A DNA stretch of 63,956 bases, counting the filler, from Platydemus manokwari (taxonomy: Eukaryota), in the NCBI GenBank assembly GCA_037951405.1. It is 5 parts of 5 records of this genome, joined end to end, with 100 filler letters (N's around TTAATTAATTAA, not from the genome) between each part and the next. Parts side by side here need not be neighbours in the genome. Positions count along the whole stretch, not along the records: positions 38,941 to 51,484 come from JBBMOY010086676.1; 4 more parts are not named here. One strand, given 5' to 3'. Below, piece after piece: positions 21,448 to 63,858 of this stretch; within the stretch, counting starts at the first letter, position 1, and each line of letters opens with the position of its first letter. The translations under genes were made by a program, and so were the position numbers. A model generated the notes under the pieces. The model had not been told where the DNA came from. It ran no database searches and was given only the letters and a program-made list of their open reading frames with translations.

Positions 21448-21703
21448 CAACAAATATTGACAATTTTTATTAAAATAAAACCAACAATTTAAAAATTATT
21501 TATTGAGATACAACAAAATTTGTATATTCCTCGCCAATTAAAAAATATCTTGGCATAGAAATATCATTGAAGATCCAAATATCGCTGTAAAAATTGTCGA
21601 GGAATGTTTTGAAAATGCCAAATATAGTAGCGAGGATCGAAGACATGGTTACAAAATTGACTTTAAAATTGGGTCAAAGGACCCTTTTTCTTAACTTAAG
21701 CCC
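21448..21703. mobile_element. Harbinger-like MITE terminus (same family as 15044 and 50537)
   Basis: Reverse-complement match to 50537-50900 with an internal deletion; ends in CTTTTTCTTAACTTAAGCCC. Confidence 0.75.
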
Positions 21704-21965: not shown

Positions 21966-23796
21966 ATGAAATTCAAAAACAGTGAAAATAAAATTATTGA
22001 AATCCCTGTTTTAAAGAATGACAACATCGTTAAGATTAAAATGGAACTTAGTAAGGTTACTAACATAAGTCCTAAGAAAATGAAATTAATTTTGGAATGC
22101 AATTTTTTAAATGATAATTCATTTATTAGCGATTTTGGTCAAATAAGTTTGCCTATAATTTATTGCTATGATACTTCAGATACGCCAAAGTGAATATTTT
22201 TTTAATATTTTTGCCTAAAATAATTTTATCAATAGCATAATCTTAAAAGTTCAAGGCTGCGAAGGACTCCCTGAATATATCCAAATTGATCATAACCATG
22301 CAGTGAAAGATATTAAAGATATTTTACAAAATGTTTGTCATAGTTATGATAATAATTATTTTATTTATAATAATGCTGGTGATCGTCTTCACGATGGTAG
22401 TGTTTTGAGCGAAATTGGTTTAGTTGATTATTCGATAATTTTGGTTTATCATGAGTAAGTCAAAATAATTTCATTGATTAAAAAAATCGATAAAGATATT
22501 TAATTGAAATTGATTTTTAAATGTGTTTACAGATCACATTTAGATGGTCGGTTATCATTAGAACCTATGCTTCGAAATCATGAAACAATACAAGTTAATT
22601 ACTGTATAGAAGACAGCATTGAAATTTTGAAAGCGAATATATCGGAACTAATCAAACACAATGTGGATAGTTTCGTCTTGTTTTACGATGATGTTTGTTT
22701 GGATGACAGCAGGAAATTATTGCATTATTCCCTGAAAAAAATTCCTTTCACAATATCTTATGTTCTCCTTCTGAGGTGACATTTTTAATGGCTTTTCTCT
22801 CCATTAACATGGTTGAAAATCGTTTGTAGTTTGACTGATTTAGAAGATCCACATTTTATCGCTCGTGGGAGAATCGCTAAGATTTATACATACAAAACTC
22901 GCACGACTGATGAAATTTTCGCTGTCAAGCGATACCATTTGACAGACCAAGGCAAATTGCAAAATTTCCAAGCAGTTATCAAGGAAATGATTCATATTTC
23001 ATATTTGCAAGATCATGACAACATTATTCGAATACTGAATTACTATAAAAATGAAAAACATTTCTTTATCGCCATGGAGTTTTTGAATCAGGTTAATTGG
23101 TTTCACTGTTCAATTATTCTCCATTCATTCTATGTTTTCATCTGATAGCGATCTCTCCGAGATTATCTCGACACCAATGACAAACGACCTTTGCCGGAAA
23201 GTCGTATTTTACCCATATGCAAAAAAGTGCTTCTTGGTCTGGAATTCATTCATTCTCGGAAAGTAATCCACTGTGACATCAAATGTTCGCACGTACTTCC
23301 ATTTGAATTTTGAAATTTTATCGTTTGTAGGCAGCAAAATTCTTCTCGGACAAAATGACAGCATCAAGATTTCTGGATTTGGTTTGTCGAAATATTTACG
23401 AGATTACGACAGCGATAATATTTTGAGCGGTATTCAAACAAAGGAAGGCTCTCGTAACTTCTTGTACAATTGGACAGCTCCAGAAATCATTGCTAGAGAG
23501 CCATTTGGAACAAAGGTTGACATTTGGTCATTTGGTGCAATGGTAATCGAATTGGTTACAGGTTTTATCGTGTTTCATTATTTCCGTGTTGACACTCTTC
23601 AGGTTACCCACCATATTGGAAATTGCACCATTTTGAACTCCTCAAAAAAGTCACACAAGATAGAACGATTTTCTATCAACCAACACAGCCAATCTCTGAC
23701 GGACTTTCAGATTTCATTGGTGCTTGTCTTCAGCATGCTGATCAGCGCCCAACAGCCAGTAGTCTCGTCAACCACGATTTTCTTGCTATCCGGTGA
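21966..23796 (+). CDS. Three tandem ubiquitin-like domains fused to a STE/MAP3K-like protein (pseudo)kinase, ~502 aa, 7 exons
   Basis: Exons 21966-22189, 22236-22454, 22533-22775, 22830-23091, 23149-23284, 23331-23561, 23603-23796 are all GT-AG and give one continuous frame of 1509 nt. Exons 1-3 each read as a UBL (D.I..IK..L...KLI..C..L.D). Kinase motifs: FAVK, KE, HCDIKCSK, SGFG, WTAPE, DIWSFG, QRPTA. An additional upstream exon cannot be excluded. Confidence 0.85.
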
Positions 23797-25502
23797 CATG
23801 CAAACAGTATTGATTTGCCAAGTGCTTGTGTGTGTATTACGTGATTGTGAACACATTAGTGATTAATTGAAAATTTTGAAGAAAAATATATTTTCGGTTT
23901 TATTAAACTTTATAATATCTATGATCGAGTCTGGCAATTTTGCTTGGATTTCTTTAGCTTCCTGGTTAAATAATTTATGCATGCAACGGTGCTTCCGACT
24001 TTTCCCTGTATCTTAAAAAATATATAATTAATTTAGAAAATCATTTGTATTACTTTAAATCAATTTTTACATAATATGAACGCGCTCACTCAATTATTCT
24101 AACTGTCGTTAATCCAATTACAATTATTCAATAAACACTAAATTATGTATGTTACTGATGCTTGATAAAATAATTACTTTTTTGTTTATTCGATTTAATT
24201 TTTTTTATTTATCAATTTTAACACTATAATTTTTATTAAAAATAGTATTTTATATATAAAATTTAACATAATCATTGTTTTTGTTTATTAAAGTAAATAT
24301 TTTATTAATCACAGTTAAGATAATTATTACTTTAATTATTTGTTTTAATATTATTTTTGTTTATTTATTATAGTTAATATTTTTTTATCTTTATTATATA
24401 ATAACATTTTAATCACATTTATTAATTTTATTTATTTTGAATTTATTTTATCAATGAGATTAATTTTTATTTCAAAATAAATCAGCTTTTTTCATTTTTT
24501 ATTCATAATTGACCTAAAATTTTAAAAAAAAGATCAAGAATGTGCAATGTTTGGATTCCACAATTTCAAAATCATTGTTGCATTTCTCAGCATTAGTTAG
24601 CGTTAGTTCGTGCTGTTTTGATTGGTGTTAAAATTTCATTTGTTGAGTTGAAGTAATTTTCGTTTATAAATTTATCAGTGTGTACGTCGGTGTGATCTAC
24701 CTGTTCAAATTACCATTGTGATCGTAGCTCGCACCAGTATTCCACTCTTAATCTGTAATTTTTGGTGGACTGCCAAATTAATGAATGATGCCTGTGAAAA
24801 ATTAAAGTCAATATAATGATTAGTTTTTCTCCAATAAAATTTAAAATTACAGATATTTTCTTATCTTCTGCACGTTGTCATCGAAACAATAGTAGTGAAT
24901 TTCAATACTAACTTACCCTTTGTTTCTTTTTTCAGTAAACATTAGAAATATACTTTTTTCGTAGGCTATTAGATATCAATTTGGATCATAATGGTCATAT
25001 TCTATTAAAATTATCTCATATGAGTTATGAATAACAAAGATTTCATAATTTTACATATGGATTTTAGTAAGTTAGCTCTTTAAAATTATGTCCTTCTTTG
25101 TGTCCGAGTTTTGTGTTAACTTTAAGCTTTAATTCATAGTGCAATCTACATGAAACACTAGTAAATTGATCTATTTGAATCTTGTTTCTAACATCCTTTG
25201 CCTGGATGTGAGCTGTTTGTAGAGAGTCTGACCATTTATACAATTTCCTATGTAATTCCCATTTGATATATAATTTAATAAAAAAGTTTTCGGAAAAACC
25301 TTATGAAAAATATTTTATCTATCTAAATCAAAAAAACATCTCGAAAATAATAACAATAAATAACGAAATGAATTCATATAATAATGAAATTCACATTGTT
25401 CATTATAAAATAAAAATTCACACTAAAATATAAATTCATAATATAAAAATCAATTAATTTGAAAAAGTGTATTAAAATAATATCCTGAAAATGATCCATC
25501 AC

Positions 25503-26060
25503 AGTTAGATAAAAAATGAGATTTGTTTTAATATTAAAAACAAATGCATGTGACTTAAAATATAAATATTGATGGAAGCAACTTACGTTTTTACTGGCGA
25601 CCACGCTCTGACTAGAGCTAAACGAGAAGAGAAGCAAAAAATGTTGCGAATCTGCCACAAAAAACTCATGAGTTATTAATTCCGAAACCGTCATTCTTCG
25701 ATTCATCAATCCAAGATGCTTAGAAATGGTTCCAAACAACCAAAGATTTCGCGACATTTAATCAAATGGAACTATCATTTACATTTGACATGCTGTTAAG
25801 AGATGACGCCAAACAACTGCAGCAATAATTCAGCAGTTTCAAAGAGGCTGTTTCAAATGAAGAAATTTTTTATGAAGTCTTTAAACCTAATCAAGCTTTT
25901 AAAGCTCATCAAAAATATAAAAATCACATAGAGAAATTAAATACTATGATTTAAGTTCAGTCTTTAATAATAGTCGATGAATTGATCATTTCAGATATTT
26001 ATAAAACTTTTACTATTAGTGAAAGATCTCGACCAAAAAATAATTTATCGTAGCGCAGGT
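25503..26060 (+). mobile_element. Short-LTR Gypsy-like element 5' end: 93-bp LTR, tRNA-Arg-like PBS, leader, degenerate gag start
   Basis: AGTTAGATA...TTTTTACT (25503-25595), then TGGCGACCACG. The leader is shared with 45296-45565. A disrupted frame MELSFTFDMLLRDDAKQLQQ*... starts at ~25766. Confidence 0.65.
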
Positions 26061-26884: not shown

Positions 26885-29800
26885 GTTTTACCGTATCAAT
26901 TTTATGCTTAAATATGCATACTGTATGCATTTCATCGCTAATTTTTGGATGATTTGATGACTAAGTACCGATTTTCGTAGAATTCCATCATTTAACTTCA
27001 CCTATGTTCTGAGCACGCACACGATCAAAATCTGAAGTTCGGCCGTGAATTTTAGCATGTTCTTTTTGACCTCTTTTTTGAGAGTGTTGTTCTTGGCGAG
27101 GTTTTCCTGATTTGCTTCATCAATTAGCCTTGGCTCGTCCATGGGGCATTTGATGTCAATTAACATGATGGTATATTTTCTGTCATTTGTAAGTCCACTC
27201 TTAGGTTGGAATTGGAAAATTGACATTTCTGATCTATAAGGATTCTATAATCGGTATGATATTCCACACACTTTGCTACAATATCCATAAGTTCATTGTG
27301 CGTAAAAGTTAAAAACTAGTTAGATGGTTTATACACTGTGAAAATGTGTGTCTGTGATTTCGTTGGGTACCGACATTTAGTGCACACCATTCGGCTCATG
27401 TATTTTTTATTCAAGGTCTGTAAGGTATCCGTTTTGGCTTTGTGGATGAATTCGAACTCTGCAATTGTTAAGTAGTCATGGAATACTGTCTTGCTCCACA
27501 TAGAGCTAACCGTACTACATAAGATATTGTATCGCCGACTTCTGATTGGTTCATTCCATTGGATTTGATACGATTGAATGAAACACCGTCGAAGAAGTTT
27601 TGGAGCTTGTTTAATATTCTTGGTTCCACTGTCGCTATTTTTGTATAACTAAGACCATTAGAGCTGATATTTTGATCGATTCTGAGCATGTGGGCATCAT
27701 TGATTGTCTCAAAGCAAGCAACTGTGTGGAGTTTATTCGATACATATTTGATAGCCTCATGGACTTTGCTCCACCAATTTTTGCTTCTGCGAGTCTCATA
27801 AATGTGGGAGTTCATCCAATTGAGTGCGTCGTTGATGTCATTGACCTCTATTTCAATTTTAACTGATTAACATAGAGTGCACTGCTGTCAGTTTGATAAC
27901 ATCATGCTTGCTCGTGAGGAGATAGTAGCCATGGATTATTGATTGAATTGTAAAACCTTCTGTCATATGGCTTAGACCGCGTCCCCATTAGCTTTGAAGG
28001 TATATAAGTAATTTGTACAGCAATATTTTGGTACACTCAGTATTTTCTTCCGGTATTTTATTAAGAGATTTTATTATTAGCCAATAATAATGCACCCATT
28101 CGATTTTTATTCATCTTGACAAGAATCGGTTAATTGAATTATTGAATAACAACATTGATATTGGGCAACCTTGACGAACCCCACGTTTCTTTTCGATCGA
28201 ACACGTCTCATAATCTCCACATTTTAACGTTGTTGTATAGGCATTTGATCATTTTTATAGCATTTTCAACAAGGCTCATGTATACCAATATTTCCATCAT
28301 TGTTGTGATGTTTATTGAAGAAAAGGCCTCCTCAATATCCATCAATGAGATGTGAATGTCATCTTTTCCTTTCCTTGAATAATTTTCTAACATAGCTCGA
28401 AGAATAAAGTTGTGCTCCGCACACCCATCAGTTGGCCCTAGACTCTTTTGCAATGGATGAATTATGTTGTTCTCATCGATCCAACTCCGAAGTTGTTGGC
28501 ATAGGATTGTTTTTAGTATTTTGTAATCATAATCCTGGAGTGCGATCGGTCTCCATGATCCGACCCTGTCAAATTCACGTTCTTCATCGGTTTAGGGATC
28601 ATGATCGTAGAATATGTTTTCCATTCTTCAGGAATTCCATTTAGCTCCATGTAATTATCAAATAGTACTTTCAATAATTCACAGTTTGAGTCGGCATAAG
28701 ATATTGTTCTTTCCCGGAGCTGTTGAATCCTTTTGACGTAAAATTTTATAAATTGTTTCAATGTCGATAATTCAAAATGAGAATTTTGAGCCTCTGTTCG
28801 TATACCTTTTTAATTCACAGAATTCATTGCATTGAGTCACATAGGGTCTAATATATTATGGTAATTTCAATGGATCGACTTGTTTGTTTCTGTAATGTAT
28901 TTCGAAGTCTTCCTTTTTTGCCCAAGTATTTGCATGAGTAGATTTGGTATTTATTCCAAAAGCAGCTGATGGGGCGATATTGAACAAATTTCGAAGTTTC
29001 ATATCTGTTTTACCATTTCTATTTCTTTTGTTGCTTTACCGAAGAATGGATGCCCTGGTGGTCTAATCACTGTCATAGTTCTGATAAATTCGCAGATGCT
29101 TTTATATGTCTCGTTTAATGAATCTTTCACAAAGTTATTTGCCAGATTGTGAGCCAGACTTTACCTGATCTGAATTGTATCTTTTGGAGCATCTTTAGCA
29201 ATAGCTAGGAGTTGTTCACCTTTCATCGTTCGTTTTTGATGATCAATAATCGCTTCGTTGGCATTCACCTTAATTGCCGTTGTATTAATTCGGAACATAT
29301 TACTATTTTTGCAAGTATTGGGTATATACCCGAAGACCAGTGGTCCGCTTTCTCCAAAGTTTATTTGCAACGCTCTGTTGTGGTTAGCCTCGACGATATT
29401 AAATCCTTTTTTATTCCATACTAGAATTGAGAGATTTTCATTTACGTTATTTTGTATACTTGTCTTCTCATCGTACTTCGAGTTCCCTTCTGGATCAAGT
29501 TTTATTATTATGTTCGTTATAATGTCTGACATCACTAATATCTATTTATTACACTTCGTCAGTAATGAGCAGAAGATAATCTCTCTATTGTTAAAATATT
29601 TAAAGGATAGGAATTCCTTGATTTCTTCTGTGTTGTGATTGGCAAGCGCTTTACTCAGAAACGGATCTAGAACCAGAAACCTTCGGCTTATAATCTCTCT
29701 CCTAGATTGTACGATTATATGCTTATCTGTGTATAGTAGGTGGTCATATTAGTATTTGGTGATTTGCATTTGTTCTGAATGATCACCTCCAACATTACTT

Positions 29801-31785: not shown

Positions 31786-33475
31786 TCACTCGCTGAAACT
31801 CTCGTCGTCTGAAATGATTCTCGCTTTCTTTCCTTTCTTTTTCGGTGGCGGATCGGAAAACTAAAAAATAAAAAATCCTCAGAATTTATAAGCAGCCAGA
31901 TGTTTTAAAATTCCACTAAAAACTGCTTAGCAACGCATTCCAAGGGTTCCTTAATTAATCGATCTAAATACTTACATCGCTCATTGAATCGTCTTCTTCT
32001 TCGTCAGTAGAAGACATATCGATCGTTCCTAAACCAATGTATCGATATTAGTTTTCTTTCAAATTAGAACAAACTTTTCTTTTTTATGGAGGAACTCGGC
32101 CTTGCTTTCTTCTTGATATCTGAAATCGAAATTGCGTGGGGATTAGTTTCGTCGTCTTTCTGTTGTTCGAGAAATGCAGCAGTCAATTCTTTGTGACTCG
32201 CTCTTTCTAACATGCGTCGACGTTGATTTTCGCGTCGGAGAGAAACTTTCATTCGTTCTTCTTCGCGCTTGATCATTTCCTGTTGGCGCACATCGGGGTT
32301 CTCTCCAGCAAATGGCAACAATTTCACTTTGGCTGCTTTGTGCGTTTTGTCGGCCAACGACAAAGTGAGCTTACGATGCGTGAATGAATCTGTCGAGTGC
32401 GGCCGGAAAGCAAGCTTGCTCGAAAACACGGCCTGAGCCTGAAGCCCACTACCTTCACGCACAAACAAATGGTTGTGATCGGCACTAATATCCATGGTAT
32501 GGACATCAAATATTTCCCGACCAAGATGTAATGACAAGCTTCCGTCAGACCATCGAACCATTCTAGCATTACTCTCTCGAATAGGTTGATCATTGGCATC
32601 CAACAGTGGTTGGCCCTCACCATCTCGAGCTACACGCCATCTAATAGTATTTTCCACTTTCAATTTCAATCTCGTCCGACCTTCTTCGTCTTGAACCTCT
32701 GATTCATCCATTTCATCTTCATAATACATTGGATCGAAAGGCCTCGTTTCGACAGACAAGAAATTTGGCAATTTAACAAGATGCATCTCTCTAATATTAA
32801 GATATTGTACCTCAAAATTTTTAAAAAATCTGTTTAATACTCTCCAAGATCAGCTTTAATAACCGGGAAATCCACCTCAATAGCTCCGTCGTCGCCGACC
32901 TCATCCACATCACCTTCAACTTGAGCATGATCTGATTCGAATGGCATTCGATACATCTGATTACCTTCTCCACCAGACTAAGCAACAAATCATCAATATT
33001 TCATCAGATTTGGAACAGGACAATATTTTACACATTATCAAGAATTATTACTTCTTCACTAGCTTCCATTATATCTTTTATATTATGTCGATTTTTATCT
33101 TTAACTTTATCTTCATCTTCTATGACGCTTGATTATGTTTTTTAATATCTACAAAAATTATTATCTACCTGTATCACTACCAAAAACATCCTTTTGAGTT
33201 AAATTTACATCATCTGAATCATCACTTTCATTCGAATCCAATCCCAAACTTTTTGCCGTGAGATTATTATTTGTAATTTCTACATCCGAATCATCGCCTG
33301 AACTTAATTGTTTATTTTTATTTCTGGTTGATTTTTCAACATAGCTATCTGAAGAATCGTCACTTATCTCTGTTAGTACAAAATAAGTTCAGTGAAATAA
33401 TAAAATCTTCAAACCTATTTTGCGACTACTAAATTTTTCCGTTTTAATATTTTGATCTTCTGAATCAGAACTCAT
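31786..33475 (-). CDS. LEO1: RNA polymerase II-associated PAF1 complex subunit Leo1, ~436 aa, 7 exons
   Basis: Diagnostic [21 protein letters not shown]...[13 protein letters not shown]...[19 protein letters not shown]...[20 protein letters not shown]. Exons 33415-33475, 33169-33369, 33052-33119, 32841-32977, 32075-32790, 31976-32028, 31786-31860 splice in frame (1311 nt). Confidence 0.93.
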
Positions 33476-38840: not shown

Positions 38841-38940
38841 NNNNNNNNNNNNNNNNNNNNNNNNNNNNNNNNNNNNNNNNNNNNTTAATTAATTAANNNN
38901 NNNNNNNNNNNNNNNNNNNNNNNNNNNNNNNNNNNNNNNN
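38841..38940. other. Artificial contig spacer
   Basis: 44N-TTAATTAATTAA-44N. Confidence 0.95.
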
Positions 38941-40234
38941 TATACTATTTTTGATTTCTATTTTTGGGCTTAATTCTATTTATTTATTTATTAATTTCCA
39001 CTTTAGATCTGTTTTCTATTTATTTGTTTATTTTTCCATATTTTTGAATAAATTTTATATTTATTTATTTGTTAATTTCCTTTTTTAGATCTGTATAATC
39101 TATTTCTGAATCTATTTCTATTTTTATCACAATGATTAATCCTGATATTTTTCTAATTATTATGTTCACATTATTATTAATTATCTGTCATTAACTCTTG
39201 TTATTTTGTTGTTTTGTTTTAATCTATTATTATCTGTAGTTGTTATACATGTTCTATTTTTATTATATTATTTATTATCTATTTGTTATATTATTATTTT
39301 ATATTATTGTTATCCCAACAAAATAAATAAAACTGAAAGAAAATAATAATTGTTAAAATAAAATTATTATTATTTAAAATAAATATTTAAATAAAATAAT
39401 ATTTAATATTGTACACTGAGAGTCTGTACAGTGTTACACGAAATAAATCTTAGTGATCAACTTATTTGTCTTTGGAGTCAGAGTATAATGTTATAATTAT
39501 AAAAATCAATGTTAAAATTTTTGTGAAATCATATAAACCACATTATGCTGTAATAGAACTCGAGGCTCTATCAATTGTGTAAGCCATTGAACAATTTCGC
39601 ACCCTTGTCTATGGACAGGAAATCCATGTTCTCACTGATCATCGGCAGCTGCAATGGCTGCTACAGCATCGAGACACGGCCTCGCGACTGAGCAGATTGG
39701 CTCTCAAACCGCAGCAATATGACATCAAAATGTTATAGAAAGGGAAAAACTAATCCATCAGCTTACGAAATTGATCATGAAACTATATTCATTGCCACGC
39801 AAGTATTGCAAAATGAAACCGATATCAGTGTGCTACAACAGCAAGATCCGGAAGTAAGAAATTATCTCACTTTGATGGATCGCATACCGGCATTATGGAG
39901 CCATCTAATTAATCTTGGAGAACCAGACGAACATTGGCTTAAACCTATGAGGCAATACCACGGGGGAGCAGTGATCGAGACAAACATGATGAAACTAACC
40001 GATAACGATCAACGAATTAGCAAGGCCATTTAAGAGCCCTTATGTCATCGAAAGAGTTAAGGAGACTAATTTTGTCATTCGACCAATGAACAAATCCGCT
40101 GTTGAGCCAATCTGGGTGCATGCAAGTAGGTGCAAGAAATATGAAGAAACCGCCTCTCAACTAGTGAGCACCACAGCACATAAACGAAGAAAGGAGCAGG
40201 ATGTCCTGAAAGCATCAGGAGGCAGATATCCTCT

Positions 40235-41304
40235 CCGATCACAGTTGATCCCGCTCACAATATTGAACCTTCTCAGTATTTATTGGGCACAAACAGAAGA
40301 AGTGCATCACTCGCCTCCATTAGTCGAACCAAATTGGACATACGATTGGGGAGTATTCTGGCTAGGAGTTACTGCTCACCAGGAGCCGCAATATCATTAC
40401 AGCACAACAATTGTCGGTCAAGATGGGATTGGCCGAACACAACATTACACCGCACGATGCATCTTTAATCAACTGCGAAATGGTCAGATCAATGGGCTAG
40501 GAAAAATAACACTTATCATGAAACAGATAAAAGCGAAGCCCGAATACAACTCGCAAGGTTTAAGAAGGGTGTAAATATTACGACTACCGATTCACATATT
40601 ATTATCACAAAGGAACTAAACCCTTTAAACCTGATTATAGGATTCATCACGAACAAGTAAAACGATGAGCACATCTTTATCATATCGAATAAAGAAGGAA
40701 AATATCGCTTCCCACGAAATCAATGTAACACATATTTCATCTCCATTCGTTATCAGCTGATTGAAACAATGGAAATATAAGATCACACGGTAACGACGAT
40801 AACAAACTTGATGAATTGTTCTGTCATCACTACTCCGTAAAGCATCCTGGAGAATACTACCAACAATAATAGCTAAGCCCTTGGAAGGCACTATTGCACT
40901 AATGCGCTCGTAAATTACTAATGACAGCAGCACTATGAACTTCACCACGGTCGTCGTTTCACGGCCAATCAATCGATTGTTACCAGACATCTGGCGAAAA
41001 GTCCAGAAGAAAAAGCACATTATCAACTGCAGCACCCAGCACAACGAACAAGCGCACAGTAATCAACAGGGAAATTAAGCCTGTCATTATGGAAAATCAG
41101 GCACTGTAGGAAGCCGAACAACGAGCCAGTGCAATGGTCATCATCATTTGCAGCTGTGTATTAGTTATGGCTATTGCCACACCAATTGTGATATTCCAGT
41201 GCAAAAGGAAAACTTATCACAGAATCCGATATACTTGGTATGAGGGAAATGACCCTCCAGCCTCCATGCTTACAGCACTAACACACCAAGTCACTACCAT
41301 ATGA
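40235..41304 (+). pseudogene. env-like membrane protein ORF in frame with the pol C-terminus (disrupted)
   Basis: Signal-peptide-like LIPLTILNLLSIYWAQ directly follows RYPLRSQ. Ectodomain fragments contain Cys. C-terminal hydrophobic anchor SAMVIIICSCVLVMAIATPIVIFQC is followed by basic KRK. Confidence 0.6.
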
Positions 41305-41486: not shown

Positions 41487-43478
41487 TGGAGTAGAAGCTA
41501 ACGCAGGGGGTCGACCCATGAGTATCAGTTCTTATGCGGTTGAACCAATCATCGCCACCAACTTTCATAAAGAGATGAAACAATCGACGTTGGCGATATT
41601 ACGATAATCAAACGCTTCTACTGAATAATCTCAAATTTGAAGGGCGAGGACCTCGCCACATATCTTTGGTCTTCATAGACCAAGCTGAAATCAAAGATTT
41701 GGTAACCTACTTTCCGAAAGCAAACCAATCGCACAACAAGGAAGTAATTCATCTCACTATTACCGTCCAGCCAATCGAAACCAGAATCGCCGGCGTCTAT
41801 CAAACTAGAAAAAGCCTCTACCTTAGAAGTCCTGCAAAGCAACATGAGGCTCAAATCGGGGCTAATCGTTAGACATCGCGTACCAAACACATTGGTACTA
41901 GAATGGGATATCATCAATATTCCTCGAATTCCCCTTTCTTACTACGACAACACTATCTCTAAACAAGTGATTCACAGTTATCACTCATTTCTGCGTCAAA
42001 TAGTATCCATCGAGGATCTGAAGTCACAGACACTGTTCATTGCTGCCAGAATCGCATCTGCAGCCCCTCGAATTAAGAACACGTACACTAAAACTGTCGC
42101 ATTAGCCGTCACCATCTGGAACTACGAAGGTCACGAACTACTCAACACTAAAATCACTCCACGTGAATACATCCGGCATTGGAGAAACGATGGAACAGAT
42201 GTGTGGCGAGAAGCGGATTGGACAAATGGACGAAATTAAATGTATTCGTCGAGTCAATGCCATAGTGGATCAACATTTATTAGTAGGCTATAAAGTAGCC
42301 GAACTATTGGAACCCTTCCGTATACCTTCCAACCGACTGTTAGGTATACGAGACCTATATCGAGCCAAAAAGCCTCGCGGAATATGGAATAGTGCATGCA
42401 GCCCACTTTGCATGGCATAAAATCCTGAAACAGGTAGTTCCGAATTACCAACTTGGCCGACTGCGCCCGAACCGAACCGTCAATATACTAGAGGAAATTC
42501 GTAGCGTCTACCTCGAACTGGAATACAAGTGGATTGATCACTACTCAATACCAGATGATGAACTTTTAAACAACGGAGAAGCTAACGAAAGCGCGTTACA
42601 ATTTCTGTTGAGTTTAATACCACAGAAATCGAAAAAGAAAACTGAAGAACCAGCAGTCAAACGATCCAAAGCATCAACTAGCAATGAAAGCGGTGAAACA
42701 CGGACCGCCTTTCCGTTCATTAAACCTCGAGTAAAAGTAACTCCTGACCAATCTGAACGAGTAAAACCCGTTTCACAGGTTAGGCAGGTAGAAATTGAAC
42801 CCTCGAGTTGTAATCGTGGATCCATCTACGACGGTCGCTCTCAAAAAAGCAATCCAAGCTATTCCACTCAATCAATCAAGAGTTGTAGAGGTGGATAAAT
42901 CTAAAACAGTAACGTTGAAGAAGACAACAAAAGGAAAGCCATTAAAACTATCGGCATCCAATGAGACAATACACGCCCACATTGCGCAAAAGAAGCCGCA
43001 AGAAAAACGACTGCGTCATAATTACGTCGACCTAGATGCAACCGAAGATGAACAGGAGTCGGAACCACCCAGTGAGCAACTTCGGAAGACATCGTCAGTA
43101 AAAAGCAATTCGGCATCGAACCCCAATTGCTTCCATTAGACAACTCAAGTCATCGATTACTCGGGTCTACCATATCTTCCACAGGATATCTTAACATCTT
43201 TCGAAAATGACAATAAACTATGGTTTCTTACTCAGCTTATCTACACCTGTTCCGACCAGCTCTTTCCAGGAACAGTAAGCTTAGAGTTCGCCAACAGAGA
43301 TCTTGAAATCGCAAGACAATATCCGGAGCAAGCGCAACCTACCGCGCTACCAACGTCAACCACCGATCAACGAGACAGTTGTATCTGGTGCAATCCAAAT
43401 CTCTCTATCAATCCAAGCACTTCTCAAGAGAAGCCATGCCAATGGTGTCAGCCATCCAAATCAAGAAGTTTGAACTAA
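41487..43478 (+). pseudogene. Accessory ORF with a REX4/ISG20-like DEDDh exonuclease-fold region, internal repeat and C-terminal CxxC pair (frameshifted)
   Basis: VALAVTIWNYEGHELLNTKITPREYI and VNAIVDQHLLVGYKV...LLGIRDL parallel REX4 LARVSIVN..G.V.YD.YVKP and L.GRILVGH...IRDT. Overlapping ORF pieces span 41666-43139; the terminus is CIWC...CQWC. Confidence 0.6.
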
Positions 43479-43791
43479 TTAACGATATATGATTATCCTA
43501 TGATTTGACGGCATTATTATTTATTGACTATTCGCCATGTGGCATCTGCATCAAATCTCTCATGTAACCTGACCACTTGACATTTATAGGGACGTAAATG
43601 CTTAAGGGGGGGGGAGATATGTTAGGGATACAATTATAATGTAGAATAAATATAATAATATGTTAAATAAAAATTTCAAGTTTAAACCCAAATTCTTTAT
43701 TATTATTTACAAATCAATTTACTTACAAAATTCTTATGTAAATCAATTTACTCAGCAGGCGTTAAGAAAGAATAAATAAAGCAAGCAATAT

Positions 43792-43950
43792 AAACAAAGC
43801 ACATGTCGTAAAACTAAACAAACACAACTAAGGCAAACAAAGCACATTTCGTAAAATTAAACAAACATAACTAAGGCAAACAAAGCACATTTCGTAAAAA
43901 TAAAACAAACAGAAAGACACAACTAAAGCAAACAAAGCCCAATCTGTAAA
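43792..43950 (+). repeat. 43-bp tandem repeat (about 3.5 units) inside the 3' LTR
   Basis: AAACAAAGCACAT(G/T)TCGTAAAA.TAAACAAACA.AACTAAGGC starts at 43792, 43835, 43878 and, partially, ~43930. Confidence 0.85.
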
Positions 43951-45295: not shown

Positions 45296-45565
45296 AGTTA
45301 GATAAAAAATGAGATTTGCTTTAATATTAAAAACAAACGCGTGTGATTTTTAAATAAAAAATTAAATATTGATGGAAACATTTTGTTTTTAGTGGCAACC
45401 ACGCCGAAATAAACGCTCTGACTAGAGCTAAACGAGAAGAGAGGCAGAATAATTTTGCGAATCTGCCACCAAAAACCTCAGGAGCTATTAATTCCGAAAC
45501 CGTCATTCTTCGATTCATCAATCCAAGGTGCTGAGAAATGTTTCCAAACAACCAAATATTTCGCG
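45296..45565 (+). mobile_element. Short-LTR Gypsy-like element 5' end (LTR, PBS, leader), truncated
   Basis: Closely similar to 25503-25753; PBS TGGCAACCACG at 45393-45403. Confidence 0.7.
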
Positions 45566-46016: not shown

Positions 46017-49000
46017 TCATTTTCTTTTATTTAAATTCAAACGAGGTATTGATTCGAGTTGACTGATAGGATCATAGAAGTAAATAGTTTTAGAATTCGC
46101 AACAAGTTGAATTGAATTTGTTTTGTTATTAAAGTTATAGTAATTAGCTGCATTTGACCTTTTCTTGTAGTTTGTATCTGATCTCAAGTAATCTATTTTA
46201 GAAAAATCATTCAAATTATAAAAATTGGAATTTGGTTTTGAGTTTTGATTTTTACTTTGATTAACAATACCGGGTAAAACGTTGTTATCAGCATTTTCAT
46301 CTATATTTGATTCAACTTTGTATCTTTCGTCTTCTGTAATTTCTATTCCATCTATCATTAATAAAGTAGGAATCATATGAATCAAATATGGTCGATGTTG
46401 ATGTCTTCTGCTGATAGGATTTCCAAACAATGATATATCAACAAGCGATTCAAAAGAATAGAATAAATCCAAGTCATGCAAATCGGTAATTTTGTTGTTT
46501 ACTAAATATAATCTTTTTAAATATTTTAGATGATAAATCGATGTTAAACTTTTAATACGATTATCATCAAGATGAATTTCTTGTAAATAAATATTATTAT
46601 TAAATGAATTATCAGATATGTATTTTATTCTATTTTGATCTAAAACTAGCTCTGTTAAATTTATCAAACTTCCTAAACCATCTATTGTAGAAATATCATT
46701 TCCTTGCAAAAATAGAGCTCTCAGTGATGGAATATCATTCAAACCCAGCTGAATAATGCTTTTAATATTGTTATACCCTAGATGTAAAACTTCTAGAGAT
46801 CTTAAATTTACTTTATGATTATTATCAGTCTTCGGAATAGGTTGAACAAGCGTTTTGTTACTCCTTGATATGATGGATTCGATTGAATTACTGTTTAGAC
46901 ATAGAACTTTCAAATTACTCATAGCAATTAATCCTGAAAATGAAGTCAAGTTATTATTTTCTAAATTTATGCTTCGTAGATTTTGTAATTTCTCCACTGG
47001 AGTTAAATCAACACTTTTCAAGCAGCAATTTGGAACATCCAATTCTGTTAGAGCATTATAATTTTCATTTCCAAATCTTTCCCGTATAAATTCCAAATTA
47101 AGTCGTCCACCTAATACATCTTTAGAATGATAAATTTCATAATTCTCCACACAGATACCATCAAGACCTTTCAAATGTTTCAGATTATAAATCATATTTA
47201 ATCGATAGTTTTTAATTGTGTGTACCACAGGATTATTATGAAGATCTAATATTACAAGATTTGTAAGATTCTTCAAAATAAAAATTTCTGTTGATTCGCA
47301 TACACAATTATTAGCGGCATATAATTCAGTTAAACAATTACAATCTTCAATTCCACTAAAAGATGACAATTTATTTGTGTGAATTGAAAGAACTTGTAGA
47401 TTAGTCAAGTTTCTTAAATATGAAATAGATGTTACATAATTTTCATTAAGCGATATTCTTTTTAATTTTTTCATTTTTGACAGGTTTTCAATATCTGTAA
47501 TTGTATTGTTGTCTAAAATCAATTCTTCCAAATGACTACAATTATCCAAACATTCTATTTTTGAGATAAGATTATTAGATAAAGATACATATTTTAAATT
47601 TACCAATCTTTCAATGTTGGAGATTTTTGTAATATATTGATTATCTAAACATAAAGACGTTATTCTCATAAATTCGGAATGTTCTTTGATTTGATTTGAA
47701 ATGCTATTGTCACTACAAATCATTAAAATATTTGCCATATTATCCAATAACAATGTGCGTGGATTAAGTGTATCAGTTCTTCCATAATTCATAATTTGTA
47801 TGTCTAATATTCGCCATTTACTCGCCAGATCATTGGCTAATTTTATTTCACAATCTTCAATGTCTTCATCATTAAACATTTTTAAATATTTCAATCCACT
47901 TATTATTCTCAATCGAACACTTTTTGGTTTCTGAAATAAATTGTATTTCACATTCAATTTGATTAAATTAGGAACACATCTGTGTAATGTTGATATTTCC
48001 TCCTTTGTTTTCACTAAAAAATTATTTTGAATATTAAGACTCATCAATTTTGGTAATTCGTGCATTTCAAACAAAGTTTGGATTTGATTAAAACTAACAT
48101 CAAGAATTTTCAGTTTTCGATTACCAATATCCTTCAAACTTAATAAATTATTGAACGGCATGAACAATTCTTTCAAATTTATTAATAATGATAATTCCGA
48201 TACATTTTGTAAATAAGAATTTGTAAGATTTAATATGGTTATATTTTCCAGTGAACATTCTAGTGTCCTAAATATTGATGTGAGACAATTATTTTTTATT
48301 TCATCAAAGTTCAATTTTTTCTTGATATTATCAAAATCTCTATCCAATTCGTCTATTGAAGGAATTTCAGACATGAAATCTTTTTGAATCCCATGATATA
48401 TATAATAAAACTTGGACCTTTCTGACTCTCTCAATACATATTCATAATCAACAATGTATTCTGGCACTAATAATTTATTCGTTTTAAAATACCAGTCATA
48501 CTTATATTTTGAGCATGAACAAATATTTTGATGTTCTCGTTTTGTAGTTGCGATTTTATAAGTTTCAAACAATGAATTGGTAGTGAGGAAATTTTCAAAT
48601 TCACTATTCAAAACTGGATTCGATTTCGATAGTCCCACGAAAGATTTCACTAGAATCACTCGTCCATAGTAAACATTGTTATTGGAACTTCCTTTCATTT
48701 TTATCAAATCACCATTGTATAAACTATTGGTCAATTTAATCACTCCGCTATCAGAAGATGAATACAAAGTATCCAGTATGGATAACGGACATTTGTTGCC
48801 ATTTTCGTCAATAAAAAGAAATAAATAATCTTGGATTTTACAATCATCAATGCCAAATTTTTCATTTCTCTCAACATTCTCGTAAAGCTTTTGAATCAAT
48901 TTGACATAATTGGATTCAATTTGAAAATTTTTTATCTTTATAACTCGATGGGTTTTTATTTGTAGGAAATCATCAAATCCAAATTCAGAATTACAAAATC

Positions 49001-50215
49001 GAGAACTGATCAATTCATTGCAAAGATTTACCCAAATCTTATCTGAACTCAATTCGAATCTAAAATTACCGCAGCTTGAGAATTCTAATTGAAATAAGCT
49101 TTTGATTTCACTTTTATATATTTCAATTTTTTTTAAATAAAATTTTATTTCGGTTTGATATGATTTTATAAACTTTTCCACACTTTCAATTCTATCATTA
49201 ATTTCTTTTATTTCATGACTATTGTACATATCTTTCCTCGGCGAAGGCAAAGAAAAGACATCAGTAGGTTTGGTTTTCGAATATTGGAAATTCAGATTCA
49301 TTAGCATTGATAATTTTGATAAATTTTGTAATCTTGTTTTTTGATATTCACACAATTTATCATAATTTATTTTTAATTGAAGCTTTATAAATGACATATC
49401 TCTGTCAACAGATTCCAGTTTCATAAAGTAGAATAACTTCTTCTTATTAATGGTATTTAAAACAAGTTCTTTTAAGTAATTTGAAGTAATATCAAAAGTA
49501 TCTAAACGTTTCAAATTCGGAAAGTGATAAATAAAAAATATGAAATAGTTTATATGATGAAACACCGGATTAGGTACATAATCTGGTCCATTTATGCTTA
49601 GATATTTCAGCTTAGGTAATCCACGCAGGTTCAATAAGTCATCGACATATTCTAGTTGGTTACCCGAAATGTCAAGTTTTATAATTGAAGTATTATTAAT
49701 TAGACTGTTTCCAATGTACTTAATCTCGTTTCCTGCTACATTTAATTCTCTTAATAGAATAAGTTCATCCAATCCCTCAATAAGTTCAATTTTGTTATTA
49801 TTCAGCCAAATAACTTCTAAAGATTTTAAAGAATATAAATTCTTAATTTTTCTAATTTTGTTTCCATATAAATATAAATTTTTAATCTGGTTACAGAGGC
49901 TTAAGCCTTCAATATCTGTAATACTACATTCACATATCCATAAACTTACTAAATTAGTACACATTTCTAAATTTTCAATAATCGTAATTGGCTGATTGAT
50001 TATTATTAACTGACTCAGACTTGGAAATGAAAACATTTTCACAATTCTCGGAAATCCTGAAAAAAATATTTCTAACTTTTCAAATTTGAACCCTTCATTA
50101 GTTAAAGAGGTAGGTTCTATGCCATTGGCACTGCATAAATTGTTAAAAATAACATCATCTTCCTCATGATTTGTATCCTAAAAATAAATTTATTCGAAGT
50201 TATTTATTTTACCAT
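46017..50215 (-). CDS. LRRC9: Leucine-rich repeat-containing protein 9, ~1387 aa
   Basis: The frame is open upstream of the tracked GTG to an acceptor at 50178-50179. An ATG-only first exon at 50213-50215 and a 35-nt intron give MDTNHEEDDVIFNNLCSANG...KLEIFFSGFPRIV, matching the LRRC9 N-terminus (LC..NG...KLEMFF.GYPRIV). SDS22-type LRR clusters flank a non-LRR middle region. Confidence 0.9.
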
Positions 50216-50536: not shown

Positions 50537-51484
50537 GGGCTTAAGTTAAGAAAAAGGATCCTTTGACCCAATTTTAAAGTAATGACTTTTCGTGAGTTAT
50601 TTGATATTAGAATTTATTTGTAATCATATTTTATTGAAATTTTTACATAAAATTCAATTTTAGATTAAAAACCAAAAATCAACTCTAACAATCAAAAACC
50701 ATGTATTCGATGCCCGCTACTATAGTGAGACTTCAAAACATTCCTCGACGATTTTTACGACGATATTTGCATCTTCAATAATATTTTTATGCCAAGATAT
50801 TTCTTAATTGGCGAGGAATCTACAATTTTTGTTGTATCTCAATAAATAACTTTTAAATTGTTGGTTTTATTTTAATAAAAATTGTCAATATTTGTTGATT
50901 GTTAGTTTACTAAATTATTTGTAAATATAATATATTTTTAAATATAAATTTTTGTGTGAGTCCGTGCACCAAAATTACTTTATTCAGAAGGTCAAAAAGG
51001 AACAAGGCTGAATTGTTGAACCAAAGCCCTATCTGAATTCCGAAACTTATATATTTATGGCATCTTCACCTGTCCGATTTATTTGATTTGGATCAAATCT
51101 TCATTTCATTACGACATCGACAAATATGGTATCTATGTATCCAATCTATTAAATGATATTAACATACTTATTTTGAGAGTAAACGTTAGTACCTTGTTCC
51201 TTGCACTTCTCAATAATTTAGAAATCACTTTTTTATAAAATAACTCTAAAAATCTTAGATATCATTCCAATTGCTTCTAGTGTTAAAGAAGGGGTCCTCG
51301 CTGATTTTCAATTAATTGCATTTTGACCTGCTTTGACGCGTTTTTAAAATAATTAATTTTTAGGAGATGTTAAAAATCCTGTGCATGTATTATTTGATTT
51401 TGAATAACTATTAGGTGTATTAGTATGATTCCGGCTTTTACAAAAATGAGTTAAAATTTGTATTTCAATGAATAAATTTAATTG
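50537..51484. mobile_element. Harbinger-like MITE, longest copy, truncated by the contig end
   Basis: tta|GGGCTTAAGTTAAGAAAAAGGATCC at 50537; contains segments matching both 21448-21703 and 15160-15330. Confidence 0.75.
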
Positions 51485-52739: not shown

Positions 52740-55480
52740 ACTTCCTTCTTCAGCCACTCTACTCTTCTTGGCTTGATTTGTCATGGAAAATCAATTAAAA
52801 CTTGAAGTGAACTCAAGAATATTAAAATTTGCATTGGGCCTTCGTATCGTCTTTGTGAATCTTGTTGGATTCTTTTTAAACCGCCACCTTTTCTTCACTG
52901 CGAAAAACCTAGATCATTCTTCTGGGCGCGTTTCCTCTCTTCTGCGTCATTTATTGTAGTTCCGTGTTTCTCTCATTTTTAGCCTATGTAAGAATCTCAG
53001 CCTTTCAAAAAGAATCTCATAGGGTGAGTGTTTGGTGAGTGGCATTGATTATGAATTTTATTACTGGTGAAAGTTTACCCCAACTTGAGATGATGTCATC
53101 CGACGTCTTTGTCGTTACTGCCTTGTCGCTTACGAAACTTACTTTTTTCAAATCCATTTGCGTGGTGAGCAATGCCTTGTTACAATATTAGTGTTTTCAT
53201 TCAATAAAACTGATCTCGGTGTTCCATATTGATAAATTCACTGGTTGATAATGGTTTCAGGGGTTTCATGGACAACGGCCTCATTCTGGTTGGTTAACGG
53301 TGTCCGGATTATTAGTTGGCTGAAATGATCGATAATTGCTAATAAATACTTAAATTTGGACTTAATATGTATATATTCTTCTCTATTTAGCATTACTTCT
53401 TGCTGTAACCCTTCAATTTAGAGCAAAATTTTTAACCCTGTACTTGGTGTTCTATATTACATTACATGCTGGCCAAAAATAGATATTCTGTACATAATCC
53501 AATAACTTTCGGTGGAAGTAACTTGTCATATTCTGTGCTTGAGCTACAGATATAATTTCTTTCTTCCTTCATGGTTATACACGGCTAGATTATCTATCCG
53601 AGTATATTTTTCGATATTGGATCTTCTTCACATCTGGGTTAACCACTTCTTTATTGAGTTTATGACTTTATCTTTTGACTGTATATCTTCCAAGTCATTA
53701 ACACTTTTACATTCAAGCACTTTAATAAATCCAGTATCAGGTTTGCACATTTTTTAGACTTGGTGTACTGATAAACATTGAGAGCATAATTTTTTCTCAA
53801 TGTTATTAATTCATCAGCGTTAGCATGAAGGCTGCCTTTCAGGTATGAAACTAGGTTTGAAAATGTAGATTTGTTTATTGGCTTTCTGCATGTATGTCAA
53901 CGCTTTGTGATGCATTCTAATTAAAAGCTTTTTCGCATGCAGAAAATGTTTAAACTGTATTGTGAATTCATGGATTGCTAGTAACCCCGTCTTTTAACAT
54001 TTATTGCTCTGAAACATACATCTGTATCCAGAATCGTTTGTTTGCCTAAATATAGATATGATGATAGTACTGATGTTGATGAAAAAGATTTTTTGAGTTT
54101 CCTTGAAGACTCAGCACATTCATTTCACCATTTGATTTTCATATTTTGTCGAGTTTAAACTGAATACAACAGTGCCGATATCTATGCGTAATATTTGCTG
54201 AGTCCCCTGTAATAGTTACATAGTTTCATGAATGATTGCAACTATGGCTTATAATTCGGTATTTTTGTCTTTTTGATTTTTTATCTTGCATATTAACTTC
54301 CGTATATTAAAATACCATCAAGATAAACTGGGATACAATCATATATTACTTCTTTGAATATTATATTCATTAGTTTCGGGTATGTCACTGGAACTGCACA
54401 TAATTCAAATGGTTATCTGTTGAAGCAGTACCGTTTGTTATTTGTACTGAACGGGGTTTCATGGGGCTACTACACTGTCATATAAAATTGCTCACTAAGA
54501 GATTCCTTATTAACTCCTGGATCTTCTCCGAATGTAATGGCTGCCGTTTGGGATTTTAGTGAGACGGTCCTTTATTTAGTATTGTTATTCAGTGGTCGGA
54601 TATAAATGCCTTGAAAATTGAGGCATATTCTCGAATGTACTTTAGAAGAGTGGAATCATCTTACATAGCGATACTTTTCTTTGCAAGTATGAGTCTGTGA
54701 CTATGGTGATGGTTTATTCTAGTATCTGCAGTATCACTGATCTTAATTTCTGTAAAAAATTCCCCGTTTGATTTTGTCATTACAAGTTTCCAGATTCTTT
54801 CCCAGTTTTCTTCGTTCATTAAGACTATGGATGATCATAACATTTCGAACTCTCTATCATTGCATGTTATCCAACATAATACTATACACTTTTTGTAACA
54901 TTTGTGAGCTCTCCACCATTTACCCTCTCTCAAATTTTCAATCTTCCCTTTCCAAATGGCTTATTGCTTCAATCCCACTGACGAGATAGATTCAAGAATT
55001 TAGTATTCGTTTTTGACAACTTCGTCTGAGTGCCTTCCGTCTTTACTTACACTCTCTAATTGCAATATTTTTTATCTTCTGGTCTTTGGTCAATCTCGAA
55101 ACACTTGCTTTTCTGTTTCAAGGCAGAGTGGACACTAGTTTTTTCTGTTTCTCTTCTCCACAACAATCTTATTTGATACATTGATTTCTCATCGTGAGTA
55201 TACTTCTTCATTGATTATATTATCTTGTTGCAGTCATCTTTAATTATATTCACTGATAGCAGCCCATTGGCCAAACGCCTGTTAAGTTTGAAACAGTTAA
55301 CAGTATCCGGATTCTAGTGTATTAGAAAATTGATGTTTTTTATCATCATTGGAATACGATTTCTTAATTTCATTGACCTGGTGAGTGGGGACCGGTTTCG
55401 TTTAATTACCAGTCATTCTCTTCGCCTATCATCCTTTATGGAAAGGTCTAAAGAGAAGGATTCCATCAGGTTGAATAGAG
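52740..55480 (-). mobile_element. Second, more decayed NeSL-like non-LTR element (5' half, ends before RT)
   Basis: Same strand skew and layout as 26885-31350. Ulp1-like patches (TDNHLNY, QFILMVF, TQQ....DIGTVV) lie at 54440-54165. It shares the 5' motif AAGGATGAYAGG...CCRGTCCCCA with the first element. Confidence 0.5.
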
Positions 55481-63416: not shown

Positions 63417-63858
63417 TTAAACCAATTTATGCTCATGTTTTGGATCGTGGAGGCATTCATAATCTAGATGAACGAAACATCTTCCCACTTCATCTAAGCA
63501 TTCAATTCGTTTCTGCAGTGATTCTCCAATATCATGCGCATATTTCAGAGGCATGTTTTCGTCTAAAACAATGTCCACTTCAACAAGGAAATTAACTCCG
63601 AAATGAAATGCTCTGACAGTATCGATAAATTTGATATCTGGATGATGGTTGACAGCGATAAATGCCATTTTCTGCAAAAAAGAAGATGAAGCAGTGTGGC
63701 CGGTTAGTGTCTTTACGTGTTCTGATTATATTGAAATAATAATTACTGTATAATAATCCGAAGAAATTTACCATAACCGCTTCGTATCCATCCCACTAGA
63801 ATATATATCGAAATAACAATGGCTCCGCACGGATCCAGGTACTTTAAATTCTCAATAT
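63417..63858 (-). CDS. Cation diffusion facilitator (Mn-CDF / metal tolerance protein-like), last two exons; 5' part lies outside the window
   Basis: Exons 63772-63858 and 63417-63721 translate as YLDPCGAIVISIYIL..W...EHVKTLTGHTA...IDTVRAFHFG..FLVEVDIVLDENMPLKYAHDIGESLQKRIECLDEVGRCFVHLDYECLHDPKHEH, typical of the MTP8-11-like C-terminus. Confidence 0.9.

What the first reader, a model, noticed from the sequence alone, without database searches (positions are those of the whole stretch)
42020..42545. Retroelement-captured REX4/ISG20-like exonuclease fold with catalytic acids apparently lost
Seen: TLFIAAR...VALAVTIWNYEGHELLNTKITPREYI...G...VNAIVDQHLLVGYKVAELL...IRDL. Established: REX4/ISG20 DEDDh nucleases read VALDCEM...LARVSIVN..G..LYD..VKP...LVGH...NDL...IRDT. 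The ExoI D-x-E position here reads A-A-R and the ExoII Asp is not evident. Inference: a pseudo-nuclease carried by the element, possibly an RNA-binding decoy or silencing suppressor rather than an enzyme.
Basis: partly seen in the sequence, partly recalled or inferred. Interest (0 to 1): 0.75.

Follow-up and report, generated by a model that had tools for sequence, protein, structure and literature searches.

The report
Retrotransposon-borne dead ISG20-like exonuclease
A broken jumping gene in an animal-type genome carries an extra gene related to the RNA-trimming enzyme ISG20L2; most relatives keep the catalytic residues, but this copy belongs to a branch that lost them and likely serves the element as a non-cutting helper protein.

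Summary
Confirmed and extended. The motifs are real but lie in three frames of a decayed ~650-codon ORF (41518-43478). The ORF sits between integrase/membrane-protein remnants and the polypurine tract and LTR start of a Ty3/gypsy element. The window pieces alone hit neither Pfam nor PDB. Twelve unbroken relatives do: their profile matches ISG20L2 (E 5.6e-19) and ISG20, and it matches the window pieces colinearly. Nine of 12 keep D-E-D/E-H-D. Three of 12, and the window (A-R-L-N-I), lack most or all of these residues. These four form one branch (100/100), and decay of this copy is too slight to explain the loss. Both relatives with long upstream flanks carry the gene downstream of an ENV-PR-RT-RH-IN polyprotein. 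So this is a DEDDh (ISG20/REX4-type) accessory gene of envelope-bearing retroelements, with a likely active branch and a pseudo-enzyme branch. DEDDy-type accessory exonucleases are known from rotifer LTR elements; ten literature searches found no DEDDh version. The decoy or silencing-suppressor role is untested, and no structure could be predicted. New variant of a known kind; interest 0.55.

The parts
39523..39729 (+). RT-RNase H remnant of a Ty3/gypsy pol (one in-frame stop); nothing of gag, env, protease or RT was detected upstream
   Evidence: tblastn with the polyproteins of L001 and L004: 51% and 48% identity over 69 aa, E 4e-16 and 3e-14; translation
40005..40136 (+). integrase C-terminal remnant; the integrase core is missing
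   Evidence: tblastn 41% and 34% identity, E 4e-5 and 0.009; the matched stretch of the relatives overlaps their MLVIN_C hit
40230..41304 (+). broken membrane-protein ORF directly after integrase (signal-like stretch near 40240-40295 by eye, transmembrane stretch 41119-41202); same position as the membrane module of L001 and L004, but homology not detected
   Evidence: hydropathy and tblastn; no hit with the relatives' ectodomain profile
41518..43478 (+). accessory ORF of about 645 codons, broken by five frame changes and one in-frame stop
   Evidence: colinear tblastn with P0004 residues 52-592; profile hits; stop count
41600..42020 (+). N-terminal domain shared by the whole family; no Pfam or PDB match
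42030..42550 (+). ISG20/ISG20L2/REX4-type DEDDh domain with all five catalytic positions replaced; frame changes between about 42190 and 42230 and near 42370
43170..43307 (+). C-terminal patch weakly shared with the inactive relative P0004
   Evidence: tblastn 37% over 46 aa, E 0.016; inactive-trio profile E 0.1
43604..43619 (+). polypurine tract; the 12 bases running into the LTR start are identical in relative L003, about 100 nt after its stop codon
43620..44300 (+). likely 3' LTR starting with TG; the right end is not defined (44300 is a guess) and there is no second copy in the window; holds a 43-bp tandem repeat at 43792-43911

Best explanation
The stretch is the middle domain of a broken accessory gene at the 3' end of a Ty3/gypsy LTR element; it derives from an ISG20/REX4-type DEDDh exonuclease, belongs to a branch that lost the catalytic residues before this copy decayed, and likely acted as a non-cutting RNA-binding helper that shields the element's RNA. 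Shown by calls: the fold relationship by sequence profiles, the position between pol and the polypurine tract, a family with nine catalytically complete and four incomplete members, and one branch for the incomplete ones. Inferred: an ancestor of these envelope-bearing elements captured a host ISG20L2/REX4-like gene and fused it to a ~170-aa N-terminal domain. It likely worked first as an active 3'-5' RNA exonuclease, expressed from its own 3' message. One lineage then lost Mg binding but kept the fold under selection, much as Maelstrom and EXD1 did. Speculative (about 0.4 given the rest): the dead domain binds RNA 3' ends or RNA surfaces and protects element RNA from host trimming, decay or small-RNA silencing.
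For: Fold: relatives' profile to ISG20L2 E 5.6e-19, ISG20 1.5e-9, SDN1 3.8e-6. The inactive trio alone hits ISG20L2 at E 2.1e-4. Six of 12 relatives pass the PF00929 cut-off. Atlas features of P0004 point to RNase_T clusters at score 0.90, a lead only. Loss of activity: five of five catalytic columns are changed in the window and in P0004, three of five in P0003, two of the three covered in P0006. Any single one of these substitutions abolishes ISG20L2 activity (PMC10899777, passages). Loss predates decay: at least 9 of 15 catalytic codon positions differ, against 1 stop in 645 codons (d about 0.01, upper 0.058; P at most 3e-8). P0003 (555 aa) and P0004 (609 aa) are unbroken ORFs. The branch has 100/100 support and survives removal of the catalytic columns and of either long row (100/98, 100/99). 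Selection on the dead fold: P0003 vs P0004 is 36% identical in the domain against 16% in the linker. Context: L001 and L004 carry the gene after ENV-PR-RT-RH-IN, and L003 shares the PPT/TG junction. The dead domains are more basic: net +9, +6, +2 (+1 for the truncated P0006) against -7 to +1 in the nine complete ones.
Against: No structure prediction was available and there are no expression data. Only the window ties the dead branch to an LTR element; the contigs of P0003, P0004 and P0006 (2.1-2.5 kb) could not be read. Only 2 of 6 loci were long enough to show pol. RNA-contact residues are not well kept: the ISG20L2 Trp229 equivalent is G, T, G in the three relatives and unaligned in the window, and the Arg226 equivalent is R in 2 of 4 dead members but in 0 of 9 complete ones. 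About four units of the charge shift come from the lost acids themselves. The window row is a long branch and the tree has only a midpoint root, so 'one branch' is not a rooted clade. There is no dN/dS for the dead branch (no DNA in hand). P0006 stops at 309 aa, before ExoIII.
Confidence: 0.6

Rival explanations
1. Same gene and history, but the dead domain works through proteins, not RNA: it is a decoy or dominant-negative mimic of a host DEDDh nuclease (ISG20L2/REX4/REXO-type) that occupies its partners or dimerises with it.
For: The catalytic centre and the base-stacking position are lost while the fold and two extra conserved domains are kept. Host DEDDh nucleases restrict retrotransposons in vertebrates (PMC10123124, abstract start in listing only).
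Against: The family is far from ISG20L2 in sequence, which a close mimic would not be (alignments). The dead domains are more basic. No partner is known.
Confidence: 0.25
2. The nuclease domain is only a structural passenger; selection acts on the N-terminal or C-terminal domain (for example transcription, export or particle assembly), and the fold persists for stability.
For: The N-terminal domain is about as conserved as the nuclease-like domain (34% vs 36%, P0003 vs P0004) and the C-end is 33%.
Against: The nuclease-like domain is the best-conserved part between P0003 and P0006 (71% vs 63%) and keeps invariant motifs such as PR...I and GIRDL.
Confidence: 0.12
3. The gene was an active exonuclease when this copy inserted, and it lost its catalytic residues by neutral decay.
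For: The copy is broken (five frame changes, one stop), and 9 of 12 relatives are catalytically complete.
Against: At least 9 of 15 catalytic codon positions changed against a decay level of at most about 0.06 (P 3e-8; still 8e-5 at d 0.15). The nearest relatives are unbroken yet share the losses.
Confidence: 0.02
4. Chance resemblance; not a DEDDh derivative.
For: No Pfam, NCBIfam, PDB or Atlas support from the window pieces alone.
Against: Profile chain window - relatives - ISG20L2 with large margins and colinear pieces.
Confidence: 0.01

Closest known systems
DEDDy (RNase D-like) ORF3 of bdelloid rotifer Juno and Vesta LTR retrotransposons and Athena/Terminon elements (PMC5408684)
   Same: A DEDD-superfamily 3'-5' exonuclease as a separate ORF between pol and the 3' LTR. 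The paper reports DEDD changed to DEED; five of the nine complete relatives here also have Glu at ExoII.
   Different: Here the donor is a DEDDh ISG20/REX4-type enzyme with an ExoIII His, so this is likely an independent capture. The elements also carry a fusion glycoprotein upstream of pol, the protein has an extra N-terminal domain, and one branch is catalytically dead; the rotifer ORFs were reported with invariant residues intact.
Human ISG20L2 and ISG20 (PDB 7yw5, 1wlj); REX4-type DEDDh exonucleases
   Same: Best structural-database hits over the whole domain, with the same motif order.
   Different: These are cellular, active enzymes. The window protein lacks all five catalytic residues, is element-borne and has unrelated flanking domains. 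REX4 itself was not compared directly (name recalled; PMC9157404 lists it in the same subgroup).
ENV-before-POL Ty3/gypsy errantiviruses of nematodes, bryozoans and flatworms (PMC13524379)
   Same: L001 and L004 have a fusion glycoprotein (PF24664) upstream of PR-RT-RH-IN.
   Different: That paper's main text and seven supplements gave no hit for exonuclease or DEDD. The relatives here have one polyprotein of over 3000 aa that continues into a membrane module after integrase. The window copy has lost its 5' part, so its env is inferred only.
Maelstrom and EXD1 (as described in PMC5408684); Exuperantia (recalled)
   Same: Catalytically inactive DEDD derivatives said to keep RNA binding; a working analogy.
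   Different: These are host proteins of the piRNA or mRNA-localisation pathways, not element-encoded; no sequence match to them was found.

Membership tests
ISG20/ISG20L2/REX4-type DEDDh exonuclease | sequence-profile match to the DEDDh domain over ExoI-ExoIII | tested here: met
   via relatives; not from the window alone
ISG20/ISG20L2/REX4-type DEDDh exonuclease | catalytic D-E-D-H-D | tested here: not met
   window A-R-L-N-I; met (D or E at ExoII) in 9 of 12 relatives
ISG20/ISG20L2/REX4-type DEDDh exonuclease | RNA 3'-end contact residues (ISG20L2 Met186 main chain, Arg226, Trp229) | tested here: inconclusive
   window I, R, unaligned; not conserved even in the complete relatives
ISG20/ISG20L2/REX4-type DEDDh exonuclease | three-dimensional DEDD fold | not testable with these tools
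ISG20/ISG20L2/REX4-type DEDDh exonuclease | 3'-5' exonuclease activity | not testable with these tools
   needs an assay
Rotifer-type DEDDy ORF3 | separate ORF between pol and 3' LTR | tested here: met
Rotifer-type DEDDy ORF3 | RNase D-like domain with ExoIII Tyr | tested here: not met
   ExoIII His in 9 of 9 complete relatives; the Pfam hit is RNase_T
Ty3/gypsy LTR retrotransposon | RH before IN, gypsy-type RT-RNase H | tested here: met
   window remnants in that order; full order in L001 and L004
Ty3/gypsy LTR retrotransposon | PPT followed by TG-starting LTR | tested here: met
   43604-43621; same junction in L003
Ty3/gypsy LTR retrotransposon | two LTR copies, PBS and target-site duplication | tested here: inconclusive
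   no second copy in the window; the element is 5'-truncated and there is an assembly gap at 38841-38940; no repeats within L001 or L004 as fetched, which start inside the polyprotein
GAG-ENV-POL errantivirus | fusion glycoprotein upstream of pol | tested here: inconclusive
   met in 2 of 2 long relatives (PF24664, E 9e-84 and 5e-94); that part is absent from the window copy
GAG-ENV-POL errantivirus | gag upstream of env | not tested
   the loci begin inside the polyprotein; no gag family hit

The most novel reading that the evidence does not exclude
A lineage of envelope-bearing invertebrate retroelements captured a relative of the antiviral nuclease ISG20, then disarmed it into a dedicated counter-defence protein that blocks host RNA decay or piRNA trimming: an element-encoded pseudo-nuclease suppressor, the mirror image of host Maelstrom and EXD1.
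Probability: 0.3. Interest if true: 0.8.

Novelty: new variant of a known kind. Interest (0 to 1): 0.55.

Why it matters
Accessory genes of invertebrate retroelements are poorly understood, and counter-defence proteins of animal LTR elements are little known. This family offers a natural pair: unbroken, catalytically complete members and unbroken dead members of the same architecture, so what a captured DEDD nuclease does for an element can be tested directly. With the rotifer DEDDy ORFs it points to repeated, independent capture of RNA 3'-trimming enzymes by LTR elements. It also shows cargo that Pfam scans miss: 0 of 4 dead members hit PF00929.

Tried and rejected
Pfam, NCBIfam and PDB searches with window pieces or single-break X read-throughs gave nothing meaningful. 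The IraD hits (NCBIfam E 0.004, far below cut-off; PDB E 0.64) and RelE hits (E 0.36 or worse) were rejected as chance. Word-indexed homolog searches with window pieces found 0 of 393 and 0 of 30 candidates. The Atlas gave no usable hit for the window piece. Three scans of viral contigs found no relatives. No whole genome is held, so copy number and fixation across copies in this genome are open. The run search listed one run holding 0.49 of the words and no RNA holder; no read data were laid, so I cannot say whether the frame changes are in the reads. An intact 1386-codon ORF 2.5 kb away argues against pervasive assembly indels. No structure was predicted. The N-terminal domain and the post-integrase ectodomain matched nothing in PDB, and the N-terminal domain nothing credible in Pfam. 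I first read 40230-41304 as env and rejected that: in the relatives the fusion glycoprotein lies upstream of pol, and the post-integrase module is a different membrane protein. The X in P0001 was set about 30 nt downstream of where homology later placed the break; later alignments used the revised limits. One search set the first piece in the wrong frame and counted two false stops; one search corrects this. My recollection of an exonuclease in nematode Cer13 was not borne out by the one paper found. Look-ups of earlier findings by place and sequence were empty.

Full report
Observation. The window is AT-rich eukaryotic DNA (GC 0.21-0.44 per kb) with host genes such as Leo1, an MFS transporter and a long LRR protein; an animal host is inferred, not shown. 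Alone they match nothing. There is no Pfam family for the pieces or for two single-break read-throughs with X (0 of 2), PDB gives only chance hits, and the Atlas gives no usable hit.

Relatives. An exhaustive phmmer search with piece 41844-42236 returned 4 proteins at E up to 0.001 among 1.84 billion (P0003-P0006). A profile search added six more (P0008-P0013; 8 hits among 5998 candidates, two already known). A scan of metagenome contigs gave six loci, of which L002 and L006 are new sequences and the other four match proteins already held. The working set is 12 relatives; P0007 and P0014-P0017 were left out as near-duplicates or a fragment. All share an N-terminal domain of about 170 aa, a nuclease-like domain and a variable tail. 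Six of 12 pass the Pfam RNase_T cut-off, a seventh scores E 0.0013, and five give no hit. The profile of all 12 hits ISG20L2 (7yw5) at E 5.6e-19, ISG20 at 1.5e-9 and SDN1 at 3.8e-6. The three catalytically incomplete relatives alone hit ISG20L2 at E 2.1e-4. The 12-relative profile, which holds no window sequence, ranks four pieces of this ORF first among 1361 six-frame pieces of the window, in order along the profile (E 3e-20, 5.6e-14, 0.0023, 0.094). The X read-through scores 121.8 bits against at most 5.0 for 1000 shuffles. The fold assignment therefore rests on a two-step profile chain with wide margins, not on a structure.

Catalytic site. At the five DEDDh columns, 9 of 12 relatives read D-E-D/E-H-D (four with D and five with E at ExoII). 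P0003 reads A-E-F-L-D, P0004 S-S-I-L-M, P0006 A-E-F (it ends at 309 aa, before ExoIII), and the window A-R-L-N-I. In ISG20L2 each single substitution of these five residues abolishes activity (PMC10899777, passages). The four incomplete sequences form one side of a branch at 100/100. This holds with the catalytic columns removed (100/100) and with either long row dropped (100/98, 100/99). The root is only a midpoint and the window row is long.

Decay cannot explain the loss. At least 9 of the 15 catalytic codon positions differ from any codon of the expected residue, while the homologous frame path has 1 stop in 645 codons. That gives neutral divergence near 0.01 with an upper limit of 0.058 and P at most 3e-8; even at 0.15, P is 8e-5 (equal-rate model). 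P0003 and P0004 are unbroken ORFs of 555 and 609 aa, 36% identical in the dead domain and 16% in the linker, which indicates constraint at the protein level. Among the six loci with complete sites, all 15 pairs show near-saturated synonymous sites (pS 0.66-0.81) against pN 0.23-0.48. No dN/dS could be had for the dead branch.

Context. In the window the order is: RT-RNase H remnant (39523-39729), integrase C-terminal remnant (40005-40136), a broken membrane-protein ORF (transmembrane stretch 41119-41202), the accessory ORF (41518-43478, colinear with P0004 residues 52-592), a polypurine tract (43604-43619) and TG at 43620. The 5' part of the element is absent and no second LTR copy was found. 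[quoted passage not shown] L003 has the same PPT/TG junction about 100 nt after its stop codon. L002, L005 and L006 are 2-3 kb contigs that show no such context. ENV-before-POL Ty3/gypsy elements are described from nematodes, bryozoans and flatworms (PMC13524379; abstract, section 5 part 1 of 2, section 14 and passages). That the window element was of this type is inferred from the shared gene and layout; its RNase H identity to L001 and L004 (about 50%) does not prove it. Only the window links the dead branch to an LTR element.

Mechanism. Most likely an ancestral element captured a host ISG20L2/REX4-like gene, used it first as an active 3'-5' RNA exonuclease, and one lineage kept the fold without metal binding as an RNA-binding helper that shields element RNA. 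The capture, the active ancestry and selection on the dead fold are inferences with good support; the shielding role is speculative. For it: the dead domains are more basic (+9, +6, +2, and +1 for the truncated one, against -7 to +1), and host pseudo-nucleases Maelstrom and EXD1 are described as keeping RNA binding (PMC5408684). Against it: about four charge units come from the lost acids. The equivalent of the base-stacking Trp229 is lost in the three relatives and unaligned in the window, and the Arg226 equivalent is Arg in 2 of 4 dead and 0 of 9 complete members (roles from PMC10899777 section 28; ISG20 Met14/Arg53 from PMC9157404 passages). A protein-decoy role or a passenger role remains open.

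Comparison and novelty. LTR elements with a DEDD exonuclease ORF3 are known from bdelloid rotifers, but those are RNase D-like DEDDy enzymes with intact sites (PMC5408684, parts 1-3 of 5 read: main text and start of the references; echoed in passages of PMC6338049, PMC6431247 and PMC5718144). Ten searches of the held library showed no report of a DEDDh ISG20/REX4-type accessory gene or of a dead branch in LTR elements; most listed papers were seen as listings only. The main text and seven supplements of PMC13524379 gave no hit for exonuclease or DEDD (supplement cells over 400 characters are cut). Sacco et al. 2022 on nematode elements, subscription papers and Repbase annotations could not be seen and may mention it. 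Unchecked notes of this scan report Rrp6-like accessory genes, one called dead, in other invertebrate LTR elements. I did not test them; they lower the surprise by suggesting that such captures recur.

Verdict. A real, element-borne pseudo-nuclease gene in a decayed copy, from a family not found in print here that has both complete and dead branches. New variant of a known kind; interest 0.55.

Noticed in passing
L001:2-9040 and L004:1-9624: Single polyproteins of over 3000 aa: fusion glycoprotein (PF24664), two or three protease-like stretches, RT, RH and IN, then a signal-like stretch, an ectodomain and a transmembrane segment in the same frame after integrase. L004 has a second, related membrane module between its protease stretches (blastp E 0.002 to the L001 module). 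The ectodomain matched nothing in PDB. An unusual architecture worth its own look.
   Followed up: partly
L001:9207-9875 and 11418-11681; L004:11571-12008: Further small ORFs, coiled-coil-like by eye, flank the exonuclease gene in the two long relatives; no Pfam family at cut-off.
   Followed up: partly
41518-43478: All five frame changes in the accessory ORF step in the same direction; chance of 1 in 16 if directions were even. Unexplained.
   Followed up: no
46017-50177 (-): Unbroken 1386-codon leucine-rich-repeat ORF (LRR_4, LRR_8, LRR_9), LRRC9-like from recall, nearly or wholly intron-free.
   Followed up: no
27316-29541 (-): Decayed reverse-transcriptase element, likely non-LTR (RVT_1 E 6.7e-10 at 28211-28591).
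   Followed up: no
53178-53351 and 54302-54460 (-): Remnants of a second LTR element (integrase-core and RT matches to L001/L004, E 0.011-0.11 and 4e-4).
   Followed up: no
10015-10494 (+): 159-codon ORF next to an assembly gap that looks gag-like by eye; no Pfam support.
   Followed up: no
5237-6655, 22789-23866, 32064-32849, 63417-63725: Host genes: MFS transporter, protein kinase, Leo1, zinc-transporter dimerisation domain.
   Followed up: no
25503-25753 and 45296-45565; 21448-21613 and 50732-50897: Dispersed repeat pairs, 85-95% alike, direct and inverted; likely small non-autonomous elements.
   Followed up: no
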